Assembly: GCF_003432385.1 (NCBI RefSeq)
Contig: NZ_CP031841.1
Coordinates: 4,280,165-4,304,164, forward strand
Direction of reading: 5' to 3'
From: Breoghania sp. L-A4
Lineage (GTDB): Bacteria > Pseudomonadota > Alphaproteobacteria > Rhizobiales > Stappiaceae
DNA length: 24,000 nt
The position numbers were made by a program, and so were the translations under genes. This document shows positions 6,128 to 16,842 of this stretch, piece by piece (position 1 is the stretch's first letter; every line of letters starts with the position of its first letter). The notes under the pieces are model-generated. The model was given only the letters and a program-made list of their open reading frames with translations, was not told where the DNA came from and made no database searches.

Positions 6128-6949
6128 TCAGTTCCAGAAATCCGGGATGGTCTCGGACAGGTTCGGCCCGAGCCGCAGCGGCGCGATATGGGTGGCCAGC
6201 CCGGTGTTGAGATCAACCTCCACGGCGACGCCGCAGATCGTCGCCTCGCCGGTGGCCGGCTGAAAGCGCGCGCCGGGGATCTTGCGCAGGAACCGGTTGA
6301 TCGGCTCCTCCTTGTCCATGCCCAGCACGCCGTCGTAGTCGCCGCACATGCCGGCGTCCGACATATAGGCGGTGCCGTGGGCAAGAATCTGGTGGTCGGC
6401 GGTGGGCACATGGGTGTGGGTGCCGACGACGAGGCTGACCCGGCCGTCGAGAAAATGGCCCATGGCCTGCTTCTCGCTGGTGGCCTCCGCGTGCATGTCG
6501 ATGACCACGGCGTCGGCCACCTCGCCCATCGGGCAGGCATCCAATTCGCGCTCCACCGCGGCGAAGGGATCGTCGAGCGCGTCCATGTAGATGCGGCCCA
6601 TGACGTTCATCACAAGCACGCGCGCGCCGTTGCGCGCATTGTAGAGATTGGCGCCGCGTCCGGGCGTGCCCTTGGGATAGTTGACGGGCCGCAGCAGCCG
6701 GTCCTGGCGCTCGATGAACACCAGCGCCTCGCGCTGATCCCAGGAGTGGTTGCCGAGCGTCACGACATCCGCGCCCGCGTCGATCACGTCCTGGCAGATC
6801 TCCTCGGTAATGCCGAAGCCGCCGGCGGCGTTCTCGCCGTTGACGATGACGAAATCGAGCGCATGGTCGTCGACCAGCGACGGCAGCCGCTCGATCACCG
6901 CGTTGCGGCCGGTCTTGCCGACCAGGTCACCGAGGAACAACAGCCTCAT
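6128..6949 (-). CDS. YmdB-like (TIGR00282) metallophosphoesterase / 2',3'-cyclic-nucleotide phosphodiesterase
   Basis: MRLLFLGDLVGKTGR..VIVNGENAAGGFGIT..TLGNHSWDQ..DMHAEATSEK..GTHTHVPTAD. These are the calcineurin-like metal-binding motifs in the order typical of YmdB. Confidence 0.9.
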   Translation of the reverse strand: MRLLFLGDLVGKTGRNAVIERLPSLVDDHALDFVIVNGENAAGGFGITEEICQDVIDAGADVVTLGNHSWDQREALVFIERQDRLLRPVNYPKGTPGRGANLYNARNGARVLVMNVMGRIYMDALDDPFAAVERELDACPMGEVADAVVIDMHAEATSEKQAMGHFLDGRVSLVVGTHTHVPTADHQILAHGTAYMSDAGMCGDYDGVLGMDKEEPINRFLRKIPGARFQPATGEATICGVAVEVDLNTGLATHIAPLRLGPNLSETIPDFWN

Positions 6950-6950
6950 A

Positions 6951-7562
6951 TCAGTTTGTGTCCGTGCTTGCGCTCAAGTCCTTTTGGCCGGAGCAGGTGA
7001 TGAGTCCCGCCTCCGTCAGCACGCGGCCCAGAGGCTTGTCGTGCGGCTCGTCCGGCACGGCCTGCACTTCCTGCACCGAAAAGGCGATGCCGATCAAGAC
7101 GCGCGGGCCGGCTTCCTCAAGTTTGGCGATCGCCTTGTCATAATGCCCCTTGCCGTAGCCGATGCGATTGCCCCGCCGGTCAAACGCCGCAAGCGGCACC
7201 AAGAGCACGTCGGGCTGCAGTTCCTCGGACGCCTCCGACGGTTCGGATGTGCCGAAGCCGGCAGGCACCAGCTCGGTCTCGGGCGAGAGCTCGCGAAAGA
7301 TCATGTGCGGCTGGCGGACGACCGGCAGGCACAGCCGGTGCCCACGCTGGCCGATGGCGTGCATCAGGGGGCGCGGGTCGATCTCGTCAAAAATCGGCCA
7401 GAATCCGGAAACAATAGCGCCCTGGGGCAGATCAAGGCTGTCGAGATGGTCCATGAGCGCCAGCGAGCCCTCGATACGCACCTGCGGGCCGAGAGCGCCG
7501 CGACGGCCAAGCGCCTCCCGCCGCAGCGCGTCCTTCGAAGCGATGACAGCGGCGTCGGTCAC
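6951..7562 (-). CDS. 5-formyltetrahydrofolate cyclo-ligase
   Basis: Contains SKDALRREALGRRGAL near the N-terminus and NRIGYGKGHYDK in the C-terminal half. The stop at 6951-6953 lies 1 nt before the ATG of the downstream gene, so the two look like an operon. I prefer the GTG at 7562, preceded by AGGACGG. The track's TTG at 7619 is the maximal alternative. Confidence 0.85.
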   Translation of the reverse strand: MTDAAVIASKDALRREALGRRGALGPQVRIEGSLALMDHLDSLDLPQGAIVSGFWPIFDEIDPRPLMHAIGQRGHRLCLPVVRQPHMIFRELSPETELVPAGFGTSEPSEASEELQPDVLLVPLAAFDRRGNRIGYGKGHYDKAIAKLEEAGPRVLIGIAFSVQEVQAVPDEPHDKPLGRVLTEAGLITCSGQKDLSASTDTN

Positions 7563-7649: not shown

Positions 7650-7810
7650 TGGCGAAGCCGCCTCGGCCGTCCGAGGTTGTGATCCCGGGAACCTACAACG
7701 TAGGTGGGCGCCGTGTGTCCGGGCCCACGGGCCCGGTCAGGAACAGCTCCCGTGGGGATCATTAAGGCCCCGGGGATTGTGTCTCAAACGCACCGCGCAG
7801 CGACGCCAGA
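7650..7810 (-). ncRNA. ssrS: Candidate 6S RNA (about 160 nt)
   Basis: It sits immediately upstream of 5-formyl-THF cyclo-ligase on the same strand, which is the classic ssrS-ygfA arrangement. Hand folding gives a long closing stem: UGGCG 7808-7804 pairs with CGCCA 7654-7650, and CGUUUGAG 7790-7783 pairs with CUCGGACG 7675-7668. There is a large asymmetric central region with a 3'-side mini-hairpin (ACCUAC-GUU-GUAGGU). The apical GC hairpin is CCGGGCC-CGUG-GGCCCGG at 7736-7719. A TATATC -10-like box at 7820-7815 lies about 6 nt upstream of the proposed 5' end. The ends are approximate. Confidence 0.55.
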
Positions 7811-7895
7811 AGCAGATATAGACCCGCATGTGCCCGAGCGCCAGAGGCAGCCGTCGCCGTGCGTGTCAAAACGGAGCCGCCGGTCGCATGCGCGA

Positions 7896-8240
7896 TCAGC
7901 CGGCGGCGTTCTTGCCGATCATCGCCGCCGCCAGCGCGCTGATCCTTTCAACATTCAATGTGGCCGAGTCGACGGCGCTCTGCGCCAGGGCCACCGCCTC
8001 GTTGGCTTGCGGGCCGTCCCCGTCGCGCAGCAGCATTTCCTCCGCCACCCCCAGCACCGCATTGGCAATGGTCTGGGTGTTGCGCAAATGGGCAACCGCA
8101 TCCTGAACGGCCATGGCGGCGGCCTGCTCGATCATCACCGCCGGCCCGGGAACGGCGGAGGTCTCAAGATCTTGTGCCAGGCCGACCTTCTCGTGGAAAG
8201 CCGCCGCCAACTCGTCCGGTTGGGTTTTCGTGGGGCTCAT
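7896..8240 (-). CDS. Small Ala-rich helical protein, divergent RebB-like paralog (114 aa)
   Basis: The ATG at 8240 overlaps the stop of the upstream ORF (ATGA). AGGGAG lies 10 nt upstream. The sequence is MSPTKTQPDELAAAFHEKVGLAQDLETSAVPGPAVMIEQAAAMAVQDAVAHLRNTQTIANAVLGVAEEML... Its resemblance to the xNAVxAQQ core of the two upstream ORFs is weak. It forms only the 3' end of the spurious 424-aa track ORF 7896-9170. Confidence 0.6.
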   Translation of the reverse strand: MSPTKTQPDELAAAFHEKVGLAQDLETSAVPGPAVMIEQAAAMAVQDAVAHLRNTQTIANAVLGVAEEMLLRDGDGPQANEAVALAQSAVDSATLNVERISALAAAMIGKNAAG

Positions 8241-8560
8241 ACAGACGCACTCCCTGCTTTCTCGGCCTTCTGACCCGCGGTCTGGGCAGGTTTGCCGGAC
8301 GCGGTTTTCGCCGGCCGCGCCGCGGCTTCGCCACCCGCTTTCGCCACGGCGCTCACCGCGAGAATACGCGTCACCGCGCTGACGACAGCGGCGTTTGCCG
8401 TGATGGACGCGTTCTGCTGCGCCTGCACGGCGTTGATCATCGACAGATTGGCGCTCTGCGCGCGCACCTGCATCAGCGCGGCCGCTGCGACGCGTTGCGG
8501 AGCCGGAACCACCTCGTCCGCCTCGGACGGTTGCGCGGCTTCGTTCGTTTGAGTGGGCAT
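8237..8560 (-). CDS. RebB-like (killing-trait family) paralog with an Ala/Lys-rich C-terminal tail (107 aa)
   Basis: The ATG at 8560 is preceded by GGGGAGA. The core AQSANLSMINAVQAQQNASITANAAVVSAVTRIL aligns by eye with AHSTGILMENAVAAQQQAAVLAQAAANQGVIQIY of the upstream ORF. The tail is AKAGGEAAARPAKTASGKPAQTAGQKAEKAGS. Confidence 0.65.
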   Translation of the reverse strand: MPTQTNEAAQPSEADEVVPAPQRVAAAALMQVRAQSANLSMINAVQAQQNASITANAAVVSAVTRILAVSAVAKAGGEAAARPAKTASGKPAQTAGQKAEKAGSASV

Positions 8561-8614
8561 GAAGTCTCCCCTGGATTGTGACGCGAGCGTGTTCGTCTCG
8601 CCGGATCTGAACGC

Positions 8615-8935
8615 CTATTTGGGCTTGGGCTCGGTGGTGGCCCGCAGAGCGGAGAGCAGCGACAACATGTTGTCGGGGACATCTGACTGGGCCACTTTCA
8701 TCGTGGCCGCATTGAGCGTGTAGATCTGGATGACGCCCTGGTTCGCCGCAGCCTGCGCCAGCACCGCGGCTTGCTGCTGCGCGGCGACCGCGTTTTCCAT
8801 CAGGATCCCGGTCGAATGGGCCAACGTCTGATAGAGATTCCCCATCGCCATGGCCGGGGCTTCGCCAAGCACCCCGGTGTTGGTCTGGGTTACGGCATCG
8901 GTGACCTGGGGGTTCACGGTTGTCGAGTCGGGCAT
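8615..8935 (-). CDS. rebB: R-body protein RebB family (Pfam RebB, killing trait), 106 aa
   Basis: The ATG at 8935 is preceded by the strong SD GGGAGGAG. MPDSTTVNPQVTDAVTQTNTGVLGEAPAMAMGNLYQTLAHSTGILMENAVAAQQQAAVLAQAAANQGVIQIY matches my memory of the RebB family signature (VNxQITDxVTQxNxxVLGExPAxAMGxxYQxxAHSxGIxxxNAVxxQQ). The size matches Caedibacter RebA and RebB. Third codon positions are G/C-rich. Confidence 0.8.
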   Translation of the reverse strand: MPDSTTVNPQVTDAVTQTNTGVLGEAPAMAMGNLYQTLAHSTGILMENAVAAQQQAAVLAQAAANQGVIQIYTLNAATMKVAQSDVPDNMLSLLSALRATTEPKPK

Positions 8936-9062
8936 GCAATTCTCCTCCCTGAAGTCGAAAATTCAGTCTCCGGCAAAGCCGGTTCAAAACGAATGCGTGC
9001 CCGAAACAGGCGCGACAAAAGAAGGTCTGCCCCAAGATCCGGGCCGGCCGAACATGCGTCCG

Positions 9063-9102
9063 GGCGCGGCGGACGCTAGGCATTCCGGAGTGCCGCCGCG
9101 CC
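9063..9102. other. Perfect 10-bp GC stem-loop in the zapA-reb intergenic region
   Basis: ggcgcggcgg (9063-9072), a 20-nt loop, then ccgccgcgcc (9093-9102). On the minus-strand transcript it is preceded, not followed, by a U run, so it is not a canonical terminator. Confidence 0.5.
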
Positions 9103-9193
9103 AAAAATAACGCTACGGCAGACGCATGGAACGCGAAACCGGAGGGAATGGCAAGCCCCTCAAGCCGCAAGCCTGCCGCAAATACGGCCGGCT

Positions 9194-9221
9194 TTTAAAG
9201 ACGCGCAGTCATTGCGGTCAA
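9194..9221 (-). promoter_or_regulatory. Sigma70-like promoter candidate for the reb cluster
   Basis: On the minus strand: TTGACC (9221-9216), a 16-nt spacer, then TTTAAA (9199-9194). It starts about 40 nt downstream of the zapA stop. It would give a 5' leader of about 250 nt containing the 9063-9102 hairpin. This is a pattern match only. Confidence 0.25.
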
Positions 9222-9259
9222 TAATGTGCAGCCATCGGGACCGCGGCGTCGGAACCTTT

Positions 9260-9637
9260 TCAGCTTGTCGAGGCGCGCACGGAACGGTTGAGCGATTGCG
9301 CCAGTTCCTCGATGCGTCCGGCAGCCTCGTCGACGCGCGCAACGATTGTGTTCTCGTTCTCCTCGAGACGATCGACGGTCGCGGCGCGCGACTCGCGCAA
9401 GCTCGCGAGTTCGCCCTCGAGCCCCTTGATGCGGCGCTCGGCTTCGGAGAGCTGGTCGACCATCATGATGCCCGCCATGACCGTCAGCCGCTGATCGCCG
9501 ATTTCCCCGAAACCACCCTTCAACTGTCCGATGGTCTCGTTGAACCGCTCACCCAGCCCGATCAGCCGGTCTTCCTCGCCATCATCGCACGCCATTCTGT
9601 AGTTGCGGCCATTGATCGTTACGGTCACCTGCGCCAT
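9260..9637 (-). CDS. zapA: Cell division protein ZapA
   Basis: MAQVTVTINGRNYRMACDDGEEDRLIGLGERFNETIGQLKGGFGEIGDQRLTVMAGIMMVDQL is the typical alphaproteobacterial ZapA N-terminal domain. It is followed by a coiled-coil tail. Confidence 0.9.
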   Translation of the reverse strand: MAQVTVTINGRNYRMACDDGEEDRLIGLGERFNETIGQLKGGFGEIGDQRLTVMAGIMMVDQLSEAERRIKGLEGELASLRESRAATVDRLEENENTIVARVDEAAGRIEELAQSLNRSVRASTS

Positions 9638-9924: not shown

Positions 9925-10263
9925 GATCTACCCCGGCGGCCTGCTGCAACCATCGCCACTGTCGTCCTGTCTTCAGCCGTACGCGGTCGCCTGGGTCTAT
10001 CGGCCGCTCCCGCGCCATCCATGCCGTCCCGGGCCGGGCGTGGCACCGATTCCCTGACACAAGGCGCACGTCGCAACCCGAAGACCCGAACCGGCAATCC
10101 GGCACGCATCCCATTCGAATATCACGATCCGCTTCGAAAGTGCATGAAGATCTATCCGGCATCCTCTTGCGAAGCCTAGGCTCAGGAGAATTACCACGTC
10201 AATGCCGGTGCGGCGGCTGCCCATAGGGAAGCCATTGAATCTCTGCTGCGGCGCCCGGTTGCA

Positions 10264-10291
10264 TTGACTCGGCAAAGGTTCCTGCTATTTG
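10264..10291 (+). promoter_or_regulatory. Sigma70-like promoter candidate upstream of tkt
   Basis: TTGACT (10264-10269), a 16-nt spacer, then TATTTG (10286-10291) with an extended -10 TG at 10283-10284. It lies about 125 nt upstream of the tkt ATG. This is a pattern match only. Confidence 0.3.
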
Positions 10292-10417
10292 TCGTGCGCC
10301 TCGCGGCAGGCGCTCACGCCAGACCGCGATTTCACCGGGCGCACGCCAGCTGCCCAAGCGACAGGACCTCGGACGAAAGCGTCGGCCGTACGGGCCGGTC
10401 CGTGCGACGGGAACCAA

Positions 10418-12406
10418 ATGACCGATCTTCAAAAACACAACCGGATGGCCAATGCGATCCGCTTTCTCGCCATCGATGCCGTCGAGCAGGCCAAGTCCGG
10501 ACACCCCGGGCTGCCCATGGGCGCCGCCGACATTGCCACCGTGCTGTTCACACGATTCCTGAAGTTCGATCCCACCGCGCCGAACTGGCCGGACAGGGAC
10601 CGCTTCGTGCTGTCGGCCGGACACGGCTCGATGCTGCTTTACGCATCGCTGCACCTGCTGGGCTATGAAGACTTCACGCTGGACCAGTTGAAGAATTTCC
10701 GCCAGATCGGCGCGCTGACGGCGGGCCATCCGGAATACGGCCACGGCGCCGGCATCGAGACGACCACCGGTCCGCTCGGCCAGGGCATCGCCAACGCCGT
10801 GGGCATGGCGCTCACCGAGCGCATCATGAATGCGCAATACGGCGACGATGTCGTCGACCACCACACCTATGTTCTGGCAGGCGACGGCTGCCTGATGGAA
10901 GGCATCAGCCAGGAAGCCATCTCGCTGGCCGGCCACCTGCAGCTTTCCAAGCTCGTCCTGTTCTGGGATGACAACGGCATCTCGATCGACGGAGCCGTGA
11001 GCCTTTCGGATTCGACCGATCAGGCCGCGCGCTTCGAGGCGTCGGGCTGGAACACCATTCGCGTCGACGGCCATAACCCCGACGAGATCGCAGCCGCGAT
11101 CACCTCGGCGCGCGCCGCCGACCGGCCGACGATGATCGCCTGCAAGACGACCATCGGCTTCGGCTCGCCCAACAAGGCCGGCAAGTCCTCCGCGCATGGC
11201 TCGCCCCTGGGCGCCGACGAAATCGCCCTGACGCGCAAGGAACTCGGCTGGGAAGAAGCGCCGTTCGAAATTCCCGCCGACGTGCGCGACGCATGGCGCA
11301 TCGCGGGCCTGCGCTCCGGCCAGGCGCACAAGGAATGGGAGAAGCGTTTCGAGGGCCTGGACGGCGAGATCCGCTCCGAGTTCGATCGCCGCATCCGCGG
11401 CGACCTGCCGGCGGGTTTCGGCGACGCCATGCGCGCGCTGAGGACGAAGCTCGCCGCGGACGAGCCGACGCTGGCCACCCGCAAGGCTTCCGAACTGGCG
11501 CTGGAGACCATCAACGCGGCGGTGCCCGAAACCATCGGCGGTTCGGCCGACCTGACCGGCTCCAACAACACCCGCACCAAGGACATGAAGGCGATCGCGC
11601 CGGGCGATTTCTCCGGCCGCTTCATCCATTGGGGCATCCGCGAGCACGGCATGGCCGGCGCCATGAACGGCATGGCGCTGCACGGCGGCGTGATTCCCTA
11701 TTCCGGCACCTTCATGGTGTTCACCGACTACTGCCGCCCCTCGATTCGCCTCGCGGCCCTGATGAACCAGCGCGTGATCCACGTGATGACGCACGACTCC
11801 ATCGGCCTGGGCGAAGACGGCCCGACGCATCAGCCGGTCGAGCATCTGGCGAGCCTGCGCGCCATGCCCAACCTCCTGGTCATGCGCCCGGGCGATGCCA
11901 TGGAAACCGCCGAGTGCTGGCAGATTGCCTTCGAGCATACCAGTGGCCCGACGATCCTGGCGCTGACCCGGCAGAACCTCAAGGCATTCCGCGCCCAGGC
12001 CGACGACAAGCTGCTGTCCGCCCAGGGCGCCTATGAAGTCGCCGGCAGCAAGGACGACGCACAGGTGACGATCTTCGCCACCGGTTCGGAAGTCGAGATC
12101 GCGCTGGAAGCGCATGCCACGCTCACCGAGAACGGCATTGCCGCACGAGTCGTCTCCGTTCCCTGCATGGAGCTCTTCGAGGCCCGCTCGGAGGACTACA
12201 AGGCATCGATCATCGGCGACGCCCCGGTCAAGGTTGCGGTTGAAGCCGGTGTCCGGATGGGATGGGATCGCTTCATCGGCACCGACGGCATCTTCATCGG
12301 CATGTCGGGCTTTGGCGCCTCGGGTCCCTACAAGGAACTCTACAAGCACTTCGGCATCACCGCCGAAGCCATCGTCGAGCAGGCCACCGCGAAGCTGGCG
12401 CAATAA
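10418..12406 (+). CDS. tkt: Transketolase
   Basis: [44 protein letters not shown]..., with the TPP-binding motif [15 protein letters not shown] and later [20 protein letters not shown] prefer the ATG at 10418 on N-terminal homology. The track ORF starts further upstream at 10289. Confidence 0.95.
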
Positions 12407-12508
12407 AAACCCCCGCGGCATCTTCACCAGAGGACGCCGCGGCACCATTTCGAACTTGAATTGATACGGGCGAGACCGGGCGCAGGCCCGGCACGACGGG
12501 AGACGACA

Positions 12509-13519
12509 ATGGCAGTCAAGGTAGCAATCAACGGATTTGGACGCATCGGCCGCAACGTGCTGCGCGCCATCGTGGAATCGGGCCGGACCGACATCGAGGT
12601 CGTCGGTATCAACGACCTGGGCCCGGTGGAAACCAATGCCCATCTGCTGCGCTATGATTCCGTGCACGGCCGCTTCCCGGCCGAAGTGACTGTCTCCGGC
12701 GACACCATCGCGATTGACGGCGGCAAGCCGATCAAGGTCACCGCGATCCGCGATCCCAAGGACCTGCCCTGGGGCGAACTCGGCGTCGACATCGCGATGG
12801 AATGCACCGGCATCTTCACCGCCCGGGACAAGGCCGCGCTGCACCTGGAAGCCGGAGCCAAGCGGGTGCTGGTCTCCGCTCCCGCCGCCGGCGCCGACAA
12901 GACCATCGTCTTCGGCGTCAACGACAGCGCGCTGACCAAGGACGATCTCGTCGTCTCCAACGCCTCGTGCACCACAAACTGCCTGTCGCCCGTCGCCTAC
13001 GTGCTGAATGAGACCGTCGGTATCGAAAAGGGCTTCATGACGACGATCCACTCGTACACCGGCGACCAGCCGACGCTGGACACGATGCACAAGGATCTGT
13101 ATCGGGCGCGCGCCGCCGCCATGTCGATGATCCCGACCTCCACCGGAGCGGCAAAGGCCGTCGGCCTGGTGCTGCCGGAGCTCAACGGCAAGCTGGACGG
13201 CGTATCGATCCGCGTGCCGACCCCGAATGTCTCGGTGGTGGACCTCAACTTCATCGCCAAGCGCGAGACCTCCGTCGAGGAGATCAACGCCGCGATCAAG
13301 ACGGCGGCCGACGGCAAGCTGAAGGGCATTCTCGGCTACACCAACGAGCCGCTGGTCTCCATCGACTTCAACCACGACAGCCACTCGTCGATCTTCCACA
13401 TGGACCAGACCAAGGTCATGGAAGGCACCTTCGTGCGCATCCTGTCCTGGTACGACAACGAGTGGGGCTTCTCCAACCGCATGTCCGATACCGCCGTCGC
13501 CATGGCGAAGCTGATCTGA
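12509..13519 (+). CDS. gap: Type I glyceraldehyde-3-phosphate dehydrogenase
   Basis: [20 protein letters not shown] is the Rossmann N-terminus. The active site is [10 protein letters not shown], and [11 protein letters not shown] lies near the C-terminus. GGGAGA precedes the ATG at 12509. Confidence 0.95.
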
Positions 13520-16182: not shown

Positions 16183-16842
16183 GTGTTCCGTTCCCGCTTG
16201 TTTCTGATCACCCCCACCGTCTTTGACGTGGAGACCTTCGCGCCGCAACTGCGCGAGGCCCTCGCGGGCGGCGACGTCGCGTCCTTGCTGATCGCGTTTG
16301 ACGGCGCGGACACCGAGAAGATGCAAACTGTGGCTGAAGTGCTGACGCCGATCGCCCAGGATGCGGATGTCGCGGTGCTCATTCGCAACGACACGCAGGC
16401 GGCGGGCCGCTCACGCGCCGACGGCGTCCATGTCGACACCGACGTTGACGATCTGCTTCTGGCGTTGGAGAGCATGCGGCCGAACCGCATCGTCGGCGCG
16501 GGCGGGATCAAGGACCGGCACACCGCCATGATGATCGGCTCGACGGACGCGGACTACATTTTCTTCGGAATGCTCGATCTCGAAGAACGCGATGAAGCGC
16601 ACCCCAAGAACCTGGACTTCGGTGAATGGTGGGCAGAGGTGTTCGAAGTGCCGTGCGTGGTAATGGCGGGACGCGACCCCGCTTCGGTGCACGACATCGC
16701 CATGACGCGGGCGGACTTCGTCGCCCTGCGGGCCGGCGTTTGGGAACACCCGGAAGGCCCGCGCAAGGCGGTGGCCGACGCCAATGCCGCACTCGATGCG
16801 GCGGCCGCGGACCTGAAGGCGCTGGAGGACAACGCTGGATGA
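16183..16842 (+). CDS. Thiamine-phosphate synthase (ThiE/TenI) fold protein, apparently degenerate
   Basis: FRSRLFLITP...DVASLLIAF...ADGVHVD...IVGAGGIKDRHTAMMIGSTDADYIFFG fits the TMP-TENI-like barrel layout. The GTG at 16183 lies 6 nt after GGAG. Alternative starts are ATG 16132 and TTG 16054, but 16054 overlaps the fba terminator. Confidence 0.7.
   Translation: MFRSRLFLITPTVFDVETFAPQLREALAGGDVASLLIAFDGADTEKMQTVAEVLTPIAQDADVAVLIRNDTQAAGRSRADGVHVDTDVDDLLLALESMRPNRIVGAGGIKDRHTAMMIGSTDADYIFFGMLDLEERDEAHPKNLDFGEWWAEVFEVPCVVMAGRDPASVHDIAMTRADFVALRAGVWEHPEGPRKAVADANAALDAAAADLKALEDNAG

What the first reader, a model, noticed from the sequence alone, without database searches (positions are those of the whole stretch)
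7896..9259. Three-gene RebB-like (R-body / killing-trait) cluster inside a housekeeping cell-division and 6S RNA block
Three tandem minus-strand ORFs encode 106, 107 and 114 aa (8935-8615, 8560-8237, 8240-7896). Each has a good Shine-Dalgarno sequence, and the last two are translationally coupled through an ATGA overlap. The first carries what I recall as the Pfam RebB signature (VNPQVTDAVTQTNTGVLGEAPAMAMGNLYQTLAHSTGILMENAVAAQQQ). The second shares the S-x-x-L-x-M-x-NAV-x-AQQ core by eye, and the third is more divergent. The sizes match Caedibacter RebA and RebB. R-bodies are pH-triggered extendable protein ribbons that rupture membranes. As far as I recall, functional work exists for only a few organisms (Caedibacter, Azorhizobium caulinodans, Pseudomonas aeruginosa). 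Four things are unusual here. The set is minimal, with only paralogs. I could find no RebC-like short ORF or linked regulator. ORF2 has an Ala/Lys-rich tail. The cluster sits between zapA and the 6S RNA/5-FCL genes rather than on a plasmid or island with mobility genes.
Basis: partly seen in the sequence, partly recalled or inferred. Interest (0 to 1): 0.8.

Follow-up and report, generated by a model that had tools for sequence, protein, structure and literature searches.

The report
Compact R-body (reb) operon beside 6S RNA
The three small genes are a real but stripped-down member of the already well-surveyed R-body (Reb) gene family, inserted between the cell-division gene zapA and the 6S RNA gene in one branch of the marine/rhizosphere genus Breoghania; only its site and its small size are unusual.

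Summary
Three co-directional minus-strand genes of 106, 107 and 114 aa lie between zapA and the 6S RNA gene of Breoghania sp. L-A4. ORF1 is a canonical RebB protein (Pfam PF11747, 93 bits against a cut-off of 24). ORF2 is a truncated Reb that keeps only the NAV-QQ core (31 bits). ORF3 has no Pfam hit. It belongs to a small helical-hairpin family that sat next to RebB genes in every complete context examined, and that matches the "HP1.2" partner of the Group 1 reb loci described in 2013. Natural fusions of an ORF2-like domain to an ORF3-like domain exist. Related Hyphomicrobiales have zapA directly followed by 6S RNA, so the 1.4-kb cluster is an insertion. A second Breoghania genome shares it, and all three genes there have dN/dS below 1. 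NCBI already names ORF1 and ORF2 "RebB family R body protein", and Reb loci are catalogued in 671 taxa. I file this as a new member of a known kind. Unusual features are the single primary Reb subunit, the absence of a regulator, HP1.1 or HP1.3, and the housekeeping location just upstream of the intact 6S promoter. Whether it builds a working R-body is untested.

The parts
8936..9259 (-). 324-nt non-coding leader between the zapA stop and the ORF1 start. It presumably holds the reb promoter or operator.
   Evidence: No credible ORF of 20 aa or more. No Rfam match at E<=1. It is poorly alignable with the orthologous 180-nt leader of L001, apart from one block.
9125..9156 (-). Conserved 32-nt block GCTTGCCATTCCCTCCGGTTTCGCGTTCCATG in the leader. 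It is a candidate promoter or operator.
   Evidence: 26 of 32 positions are identical to L001 by my reading of the two leaders printed. The core of 17/18 was found by blastn. The rest of the intergenic region has diverged. Its function is inferred only.
8615..8935 (-). ORF1, a primary RebB-family R-body subunit (106 aa).
   Evidence: PF11747 at 93 bits against GA 24. It carries NPQVTD, APAMAMGNLY and ENAVAAQQQ motifs and the conserved SDVPDNMLSLLSALRA tail. It has 1109 homologues, and NCBI names it 'RebB family R body protein'.
8237..8560 (-). ORF2, a truncated Reb paralog (107 aa). It keeps only the central NAV-QQ core and adds an Ala/Lys-rich tail.
   Evidence: PF11747 at 31.1 bits, residues 24-70 matching profile positions 19-65. 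It lacks the QITD motif. NCBI names it RebB family. It is 39.5% identical over 43 aa to the N-terminal part of Azospirillum HP1.3. dN/dS is 0.41.
7896..8240 (-). ORF3, a Reb-associated helical-hairpin protein (114 aa) of the HP1.2-like family. It is translationally coupled to ORF2 through ATGA.
   Evidence: No Pfam or NCBIfam hit. 36 relatives were found among 1.84 billion representative proteins. In every complete context examined its relatives lie directly after a RebB gene. The family profile hits the Azospirillum 116-aa gene at E 8e-29. The AF2 model is a hairpin, H33-72 and H76-112, pLDDT 87. dN/dS is 0.46.
7867..7907 (-). Stem-loop spanning the ORF3 stop codon, followed by UCCGUUUUG. It is a candidate terminator of the reb operon.
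   Evidence: RNAfold predicts an 8+4 bp GC-rich hairpin. The consensus terminator scan missed it. The U-tract is short, so termination is inferred and not shown.
7815..7846 (-). The 6S RNA gene's own promoter-like element (CTGG-N20-TATAT), left intact downstream of the insertion.
   Evidence: CTGG and TATAT are invariant in all 7 Hyphomicrobiales aligned, with or without the reb insert (alignment A4).
7651..7806 (-). 6S RNA (ssrS), the downstream boundary of the insertion.
   Evidence: Rfam RF00013 at 75.7 bits against GA 46.4.
9260..9637 (-). zapA, the upstream boundary of the insertion.
   Evidence: Its orthologue in L001 carries Pfam ZapA. It is 97% identical to L001 and 72% to B. corrubedonensis.

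Best explanation
This is a compact chromosomal reb operon of the 'Group 1' type. It has one primary RebB structural subunit (ORF1). It also has two accessory partners that travel with this Reb subfamily: a core-only Reb (ORF2, HP1.4/HP1.3-like) and a helical-hairpin protein (ORF3, HP1.2-like). The 1.4-kb module was inserted between the zapA stop codon and the 6S RNA promoter in the common ancestor of Breoghania sp. L-A4 and one sister genome. It has since been kept under purifying selection that is weaker than on the flanking genes. Inferred mechanism: the operon is transcribed from its own promoter in the 324-nt leader and probably ends at the hairpin over the ORF3 stop codon. ORF1 polymerises into the Reb ribbon. 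ORF2 and ORF3 interact with each other and act as minor or assembly components, by analogy with RebD, RebC and RapA. Family membership, gene linkage, the insertion and the selection pattern are shown here. Polymer formation, pH-driven extension, and promoter and terminator function are inferred.
For: ORF1 and ORF2 exceed the PF11747 gathering score. ORF1 has all diagnostic Reb motifs (motifs as defined in PMC13430693). Linkage: ORF3-family genes directly follow a RebB gene in L001, L023, L024, L025, L026, L028/L029, L033 and L035. The L027 contig is cut just upstream of its copy. P0142, P0148 and P0150 fuse an ORF2-like Reb core to an ORF3-like domain. The Azospirillum brasilense plasmid, named as Group 1 in PMC3583457, has a 116-aa gene at the HP1.2 position that matches the ORF3 profile at E 8e-29. 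Insertion: four relatives have zapA, a 50-500 nt gap, then 6S RNA. The 6S promoter motif is conserved in all seven taxa aligned. Retention: L001 has the same synteny. dS of the reb genes (0.49-1.06) is similar to the flanks (0.39-0.69), and dN/dS is 0.19-0.46. GC content matches the flanks.
Against: There is only one primary Reb. Characterised R-bodies use two: RebA+RebB or RebP1+RebP2 (PMC8322103). Caedibacter single knock-outs form rolls that no longer extend with pH (bioRxiv 10.64898/2026.05.21.725848). HP1.1 and the long HP1.3 of typical Group 1 loci are absent. No regulator is linked. The L001 orthologue of ORF1 lacks the conserved C-terminal segment. There are no expression or ultrastructure data for Breoghania. 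The assignment of HP1.x names to the Azospirillum genes rests on size and order only.
Confidence: 0.62

Rival explanations
1. The cluster is a decaying remnant of a larger reb locus. The genes are still readable but no longer build an R-body. The lineage is losing the system piece by piece.
For: There is a single primary Reb, and HP1.1/HP1.3 and a regulator are missing. Protein divergence is far higher than in the flanks: 48-73% identity across the aligned codons of the three reb genes, against 96-97% for DUF4164, zapA and YmdB and 85% for 5-FCL. The L001 ORF1 orthologue is cut to 84 aa and lacks the conserved tail. B. corrubedonensis keeps only a solo ORF3-like gene near the 6S gene and has no RebB at all.
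Against: All three reading frames are intact in two genomes separated by dS of about 0.5-1, with dN/dS of 0.19-0.46 rather than about 1. The Shine-Dalgarno sequences and the ATGA coupling are preserved. An even smaller RebB + ORF3-like pair exists in Caulobacter sp. AP07, which suggests small modules are a stable state. Reb proteins of 84-96 aa without the tail are normal in Azospirillum.
Confidence: 0.2
2. The proteins form a Reb-like helical polymer or complex with a role other than a pH-triggered membrane-breaking ribbon. Examples would be a static roll or a storage or stress-related inclusion. Its expression would be tied to stationary phase through read-through into, or shared control with, the adjacent 6S RNA gene.
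For: Caedibacter mutants with only one of RebA/RebB make rolls that do not extend (bioRxiv 10.64898/2026.05.21.725848). The cluster ends about 50 nt before the 6S promoter, and the terminator candidate has only a short U-tract. No zapA terminator was detected. The host is a free-living rhizosphere bacterium with no known eukaryotic target (PMC6357640).
Against: 6S RNA keeps its own conserved promoter in taxa with and without the insert, so no coupling is required. B. corrubedonensis carries unrelated cargo at the same junction (WYL/HTH regulator plus glyoxalase). That pattern fits a permissive insertion site better than a functional link. There are no data on expression.
Confidence: 0.15

Closest known systems
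Group 1 reb loci of Raymann et al. 2013 (e.g. the Azospirillum brasilense plasmid: RebB x5, HP1.4, HP1.3, HP1.2, HP1.1)
   Same: A primary RebB gene is followed by a core-only Reb-like gene and an HP1.2-like gene, all on the same strand and with overlapping or closely spaced genes. The ORF3 profile hits the Azospirillum 116-aa gene at E 8e-29, with 37% identity over 89 aa.
   Different: There is one primary Reb instead of several. There is no HP1.1 (about 360 aa) and no long proline-rich HP1.3. ORF3 has lost the N-terminal QI(I/V)D motif that the Azospirillum and Magnetovibrio homologues keep. The locus is chromosomal and sits inside a housekeeping block.
Caedibacter taeniospiralis type 51 reb operon (rebA, rebB, rebD, rebC) on pKAP298
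   Same: Small helical Reb paralogs of about 80-115 aa lie in tandem. ORF1 is 47% identical to a Caedibacter Reb. Sizes are comparable (PMC3764935).
   Different: Caedibacter has two major subunits plus RebD, and RebC is unique to it. Its operon is plasmid-borne and the host is an endosymbiont. No ORF3-like gene appears in the pKAP298 stretch examined. The ORF3 profile gives only weak hits there, to RebD, RebB and RebA.
Labrenzia alexandrii / Roseibium / Ruegeria pomeroyi reb clusters (Group 2 type; same family Stappiaceae for the first two)
   Same: These are chromosomal or megaplasmid reb genes in marine Alphaproteobacteria. R-bodies have been seen by EM in L. alexandrii (PMC3764935).
   Different: These carry an ECF sigma factor, and in Ruegeria also a Crp-type regulator. 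The Reb genes are separated by four larger hypothetical genes (PMC3764935). Breoghania has none of these. Its ORF1 is closest to Reb proteins from Caulobacter, Magnetovibrio and Magnetospirillum, which points to a separate acquisition.
Caulobacter sp. AP07 RebB + 106-aa gene pair
   Same: It holds the closest homologue of ORF1 (72% identity). That gene is followed one base later by an ORF3-family gene (E 6.5e-12). The pair is embedded among housekeeping genes next to rpmB, with no linked regulator of the kind seen in other reb clusters.
   Different: It has two genes only and no ORF2-like core-only Reb. The chromosomal site is different.

Membership tests
RebB / 'Killing trait' (Pfam PF11747) | Score at or above the Pfam gathering threshold (24 bits) | tested here: met
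   ORF1 scores 93 bits and ORF2 31.1 bits. ORF3 gives no hit at E<=10, so ORF3 is not filed as a member. One ORF3 relative, P0153, reaches 25.7 bits over the same core region.
RebB / 'Killing trait' (Pfam PF11747) | Diagnostic motifs of primary Rebs: proline-flanked QITD, conserved Tyr, and NAV followed by QQQ (PMC13430693) | tested here: met
   ORF1 has NPQVTD, APAMAMGNLY and ENAVAAQQQ. ORF2 has only INAVQAQQN. ORF3 has ANAV but no QITD and no QQ. The feature is therefore met for ORF1, partly met for ORF2 and not met for ORF3.
RebB / 'Killing trait' (Pfam PF11747) | Assembly into SDS-insoluble coiled ribbons that extend at low pH | not testable with these tools
   This needs EM and biochemistry. 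The AF2 monomer of ORF1 is uninformative (pLDDT 57). No Reb structure was found in the PDB by sequence or by fold.
Group 1 reb synteny pattern (Raymann et al. 2013) | HP1.2-type partner (about 110-120 aa) next to the reb genes | tested here: met
   The ORF3-core HMM hits A. brasilense L031:7261-7611 (116 aa) at E 8.3e-29. tblastn gives 37% identity over 89 aa. The identification of that gene as HP1.2 is by size and order.
Group 1 reb synteny pattern (Raymann et al. 2013) | HP1.4/HP1.3-type distant Reb homologues lacking some conserved positions | tested here: inconclusive
   ORF2 has that architecture. It matches the N-terminal part of HP1.3 only weakly (39.5% over 43 aa, E 0.005 in a small database). 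It has an Ala/Lys tail rather than a proline-rich one.
Group 1 reb synteny pattern (Raymann et al. 2013) | HP1.1 (about 360 aa) in the locus | tested here: not met
   tblastn of the A. brasilense 359-aa protein finds nothing in the window or in L001.
Type 51 R-body operon (Caedibacter) | Two major subunits (RebA and RebB) plus RebC | tested here: not met
   Only one primary Reb is present. No small ORF lies in the leader. RebC has no homologues outside Caedibacter (PMC3583457, PMC13430693).
Genomic island / mobile element | Presence/absence polymorphism at a conserved site | tested here: met
   zapA and 6S are adjacent in L006-L009. The reb insert is found only in the window and L001. B. corrubedonensis has different cargo at the site.
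Genomic island / mobile element | Atypical composition, integrase or transposase, tRNA target, or flanking direct repeats | tested here: not met
   GC is 0.62-0.69, the same as the flanks. No mobility genes were found. Only short chance-level repeats were found.

The most novel reading that the evidence does not exclude
A module with a single primary Reb plus the ORF2-like and ORF3-like (HP1.2) partners may be the smallest natural unit able to build an R-body-type polymer. In that case the ORF2-ORF3 pair, fused in some organisms, would be the widespread assembly factor that stands in for Caedibacter's orphan RebC. Insertion just upstream of the 6S RNA promoter might also place it under stationary-phase control.
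Probability: 0.15. Interest if true: 0.55.

Novelty: new member of a known kind. Interest (0 to 1): 0.3.

Why it matters
R-bodies are being developed as pH-driven protein actuators. How the accessory proteins guide assembly is still open; the 2026 preprint shows that RebC and RebD steer the assembly pathway. A three-gene, 1-kb natural module would be a convenient minimal test system. Two results here point to the HP1.2-like family as a direct partner of the core-only Rebs: natural ORF2-like/ORF3-like fusions, and an ORF3-family gene directly after a RebB gene in every complete context examined. That family has no Pfam or NCBIfam model, and ORF3 is still annotated as hypothetical. For genome biology the finding is modest. 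It shows the zapA|ssrS junction acting as a permissive insertion site in Breoghania without disturbing the 6S promoter.

Tried and rejected
1. A profile-profile comparison of the full ORF3 family alignment against a RebB alignment gave a hit. The hit came only from the fused N-terminal Reb domains of three members. After trimming to the ORF3 core it was not significant (E 0.27). I therefore do not claim ORF3 as a RebB member.
2. A word-indexed protein search with ORF2 found only ORF2 itself.
3. tblastn of ORF3 and of the fusion protein P0150 against plasmids found nothing.
4. A PDB sequence search found only designed helical repeats or chance hits. A PDB fold search of the ORF3 model gave only generic hairpins at E>=0.17.
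5. The AFDB fold library was not available, so I could not test whether the ORF3 model resembles Reb models.
6. The AF2 model of ORF1 was low-confidence.
7. The consensus promoter/terminator scan found nothing useful in the leader.
8. I tried to read EcfG-, RpoH- or sigma-54-type promoters into the leader by eye. None fitted, and none is claimed.
9. I looked for direct repeats that could mark an integration event and found only short chance-level matches.
10. An Rfam scan at relaxed threshold found no RNA element in the leader.
11. The supplementary text held for PMC13430693 does not mention Breoghania.
Full report
**Source and observation**

The window comes from the 5.03-Mb chromosome of Breoghania sp. 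L-A4. ORF1 and ORF3 have 100%-identical database entries on a contig of 5,029,620 bp. The strain is an acyl-homoserine-lactone producer from a Phragmites rhizosphere (PMC6357640).

On the minus strand the gene order is as follows:
- DUF4164 (9924-9643)
- zapA (9637-9260)
- a 324-nt gap
- ORF1 (8935-8615, 106 aa)
- ORF2 (8560-8237, 107 aa)
- ORF3 (8240-7896, 114 aa)
- 6S RNA (7806-7651, Rfam 75.7 bits)
- 5-formyltetrahydrofolate cyclo-ligase (7619-6951)
- YmdB (6949-6128)

Each ORF has a purine-rich ribosome-binding site. ORF2 and ORF3 overlap in ATGA.

**What the three proteins are**

*ORF1* is a textbook primary Reb protein.
- It scores 93 bits on PF11747 against a gathering score of 24.
- It carries the motifs that a 2026 survey uses as diagnostic: NPQVTD, a second proline, the conserved tyrosine, and NAV followed by QQQ (PMC13430693).
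- It also has the conserved C-terminal SDVPDNMLSLLSALRA segment.
- It has more than 1,100 homologues. The nearest (62-75% identical) come from Caulobacter, Magnetovibrio, Magnetospirillum, Methylobacter and Thiodiazotropha, not from other Hyphomicrobiales.

*ORF2* passes PF11747 at 31.1 bits, but only over the central part, profile positions 19-65. It lacks the N-terminal QITD region and ends in an Ala/Lys-rich tail. NCBI already names both ORF1 and ORF2 "RebB family R body protein".

*ORF3* has no Pfam or NCBIfam match, and NCBI calls it hypothetical.
- An exhaustive HMMER search of 1.84 billion representative proteins found only 36 relatives at E<=0.001.
- Its AlphaFold2 model is a confident two-helix hairpin, H33-72 and H76-112, mean pLDDT 87.
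- No solved structure resembles it beyond generic hairpins.

**ORF3 belongs to a Reb-linked family**

I looked up the genomic context of ORF3 relatives. In every case with enough sequence, the gene directly follows a RebB gene, often overlapping it. These are L001, L023, L024, L025, L026, L028/L029, Caulobacter sp. AP07 (L033) and Magnetovibrio blakemorei (L035). One more relative, in L027, lies on a contig that is cut just upstream of the gene.

Three relatives (P0142, P0148, P0150) are natural fusions. Each has an N-terminal Reb core, which passes PF11747 at 28-38 bits, joined to a C-terminal ORF3-like domain. This is Rosetta-stone evidence that ORF2-like and ORF3-like proteins work together.

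A profile of the ORF3 core matches a 116-aa "hypothetical" gene in the Azospirillum brasilense plasmid reb locus at E 8e-29. Raymann et al. name that plasmid as carrying their Group 1 synteny pattern, which consists of HP1.1 (about 360 aa), HP1.2 (about 110-120 aa), HP1.3 (about 170 aa) and HP1.4 (about 60-80 aa) (PMC3583457). The Azospirillum genes of 359, 116, 155 and 77 aa fit that description in size and order. On that basis I identify ORF3 with HP1.2 and ORF2 with the HP1.4/HP1.3 type. This correspondence is an inference from size and order, not from accession numbers.

**Is ORF3 itself a Reb homologue?**

The evidence is mixed.
- Against: a trimmed ORF3-core profile against a narrow RebB profile is not significant (E 0.27). 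An earlier apparent hit came only from the fused members.
- For: one family member (P0153) reaches 25.7 bits on PF11747 over the core region. The ORF3-core profile's next-best hits after the family's own Azospirillum member, across three reference loci, are all Reb or Reb-like proteins: Ruegeria RebB at 8.7e-5, Caedibacter RebD at 6e-4, the Azospirillum 77-aa HP1.4-like Reb at 1.2e-3, and Caedibacter RebB and RebA at 0.004-0.016. Among 3,741 ORFs from GC-rich loci it hit nothing unrelated to reb genes below E 0.5.

I conclude that remote homology is likely. ORF3 fails the family's formal test and is not filed as a RebB member.

**The cluster is an insertion**

I fetched zapA loci from 21 genomes.
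- In four relatives (a Stappiaceae MAG, a Rhodobiaceae MAG and two Cohaesibacter-type MAGs; L006-L009), zapA is followed within about 50-500 nt by 6S RNA.
- Only the window and L001 carry the reb genes in that gap. L001 comes from assembly GCA_041596535.1, and its ZapA is 97% identical to the window's.
- Breoghania corrubedonensis has a different 1.4-kb insert at the same junction: a WYL/HTH regulator and a glyoxalase-fold protein.
- B. corrubedonensis also has a solo ORF3-like gene on the other side of the 6S gene. It scores E 5.5e-13 against the family profile and is 37% identical to ORF3.
- A promoter-like element immediately upstream of 6S (CTGG-N20-TATAT) is invariant in all seven taxa aligned. 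The insert therefore sits between the zapA stop codon and an intact 6S promoter.
- There is no compositional anomaly, no mobility gene and no meaningful flanking repeat. This agrees with the earlier report that reb loci show no signs of recent mobile-element transfer (PMC3583457).

**The genes are maintained**

I compared L-A4 with L001.

| Genes | dS | dN/dS |
|---|---|---|
| DUF4164, zapA, YmdB | 0.39-0.69 | 0.03-0.06 |
| 5-FCL | 0.48 | 0.19 |
| ORF1 | 1.06 | 0.19 |
| ORF2 | 0.99 | 0.41 |
| ORF3 | 0.49 | 0.46 |

The cluster was therefore already present in the common ancestor of the two strains. It is under purifying selection, but a looser one than on the flanking genes. One caveat is that the L001 orthologue of ORF1 ends at 84 aa and lacks the conserved tail. 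Reb proteins of that length are normal in Azospirillum.

**Expression signals (inferred only)**

- The leader shares one 32-nt block with L001 (9156-9125, 26/32 identical by eye, with a core of 17/18 by blastn) in an otherwise diverged spacer.
- A GC-rich hairpin covers the ORF3 stop codon and is followed by UCCGUUUUG (7907-7867).
- No Rfam element lies in the leader.
- The simple promoter/terminator scan was uninformative.

**Likely mechanism**

The best reading is a compact reb operon. ORF1 is the ribbon subunit. ORF2 and ORF3 form an interacting accessory pair, comparable in role to minor or assembly components such as RebD, RebC or RapA (PMC8322103; bioRxiv 10.64898/2026.05.21.725848).

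The main doubt is sufficiency. Characterised systems use two major subunits. Caedibacter constructs lacking RebA or RebB still make rolls but lose pH-driven extension (same preprint). A static roll, or gradual decay of the system, are therefore serious rivals.

**Comparison and novelty**

- Reb homologues were surveyed in 2013 (PMC3583457) and again in 2026. The 2026 survey covers 671 taxa and includes secondary groups seeded from the hypothetical proteins of the 2013 synteny patterns (PMC13430693).
- R-bodies have been seen in the related species Labrenzia alexandrii. Its locus is of the other type, with an ECF sigma factor (PMC3764935).
- No paper links Breoghania with R-bodies.
- The locus is thus a new, unusually small member of a known kind.

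The features worth recording are:
- the single primary subunit;
- the missing HP1.1, HP1.3 and regulator;
- the housekeeping insertion site next to ssrS;
- the support for ORF2-like and ORF3-like proteins as direct partners.

Noticed in passing
L002:6462-7632 and L002:8086-8589 (Breoghania corrubedonensis DSM 23382): The same zapA|6S junction holds unrelated cargo here: a WYL/HTH regulator and a glyoxalase-fold protein. A solo ORF3-like gene (E 5.5e-13 to the family profile, 37% identical to ORF3) lies on the other side of the 6S gene, between 6S and 5-FCL, with no RebB gene nearby. I cannot tell whether it is a relic of an ancestral reb cluster or a separate event.
   Followed up: partly
window 7815-7846; alignment A4: A promoter-like element, CTGG-N20-TATAT, ends about 10 nt before the 6S RNA 5' end. 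Both boxes are invariant across seven Hyphomicrobiales genomes, while the surrounding spacer is not conserved.
   Followed up: partly
P0142, P0148, P0150 (L028:5716-6333, L029:873-1490): These are natural fusion proteins of 156-205 aa. Each joins a Reb core (NAV-QQ; PF11747 at 28-38 bits) to an ORF3-like hairpin domain. In L028/L029 the fusion follows a RebB gene and a 101-aa gene with no Pfam hit.
   Followed up: partly
L033:5001-5706 (Caulobacter sp. AP07): The closest homologue of ORF1 forms a two-gene cluster with an ORF3-family gene that starts one base after the RebB stop codon. The pair is embedded among housekeeping genes beside rpmB. It is an even smaller reb module than the one in the window.
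   Followed up: partly
L001:9413-9667: The orthologue of ORF1 in the sister genome ends at 84 aa. It lacks the C-terminal SDVPDNMLSLLSALRA segment, much of which is invariant in the 20 close homologues aligned in A2.
   Followed up: partly
window 10199-13399 (-), 6188-7000 (+), 7896-9170 (-): Very long ORFs run antisense to, or out of frame with, real genes. One example is a 1066-aa ORF opposite transketolase and GAPDH. They are typical high-GC shadow ORFs, not genes. The 424-aa ORF is simply the ORF3 frame running open upstream.
   Followed up: no
window 16626-17987 (+): A 453-aa protein with five Sel1 repeats lies between the thiamine-phosphate synthase-like gene and efp, in an otherwise housekeeping glycolysis/translation block. 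Part of its ORF overlaps the preceding ORF, so its true start is probably internal.
   Followed up: no
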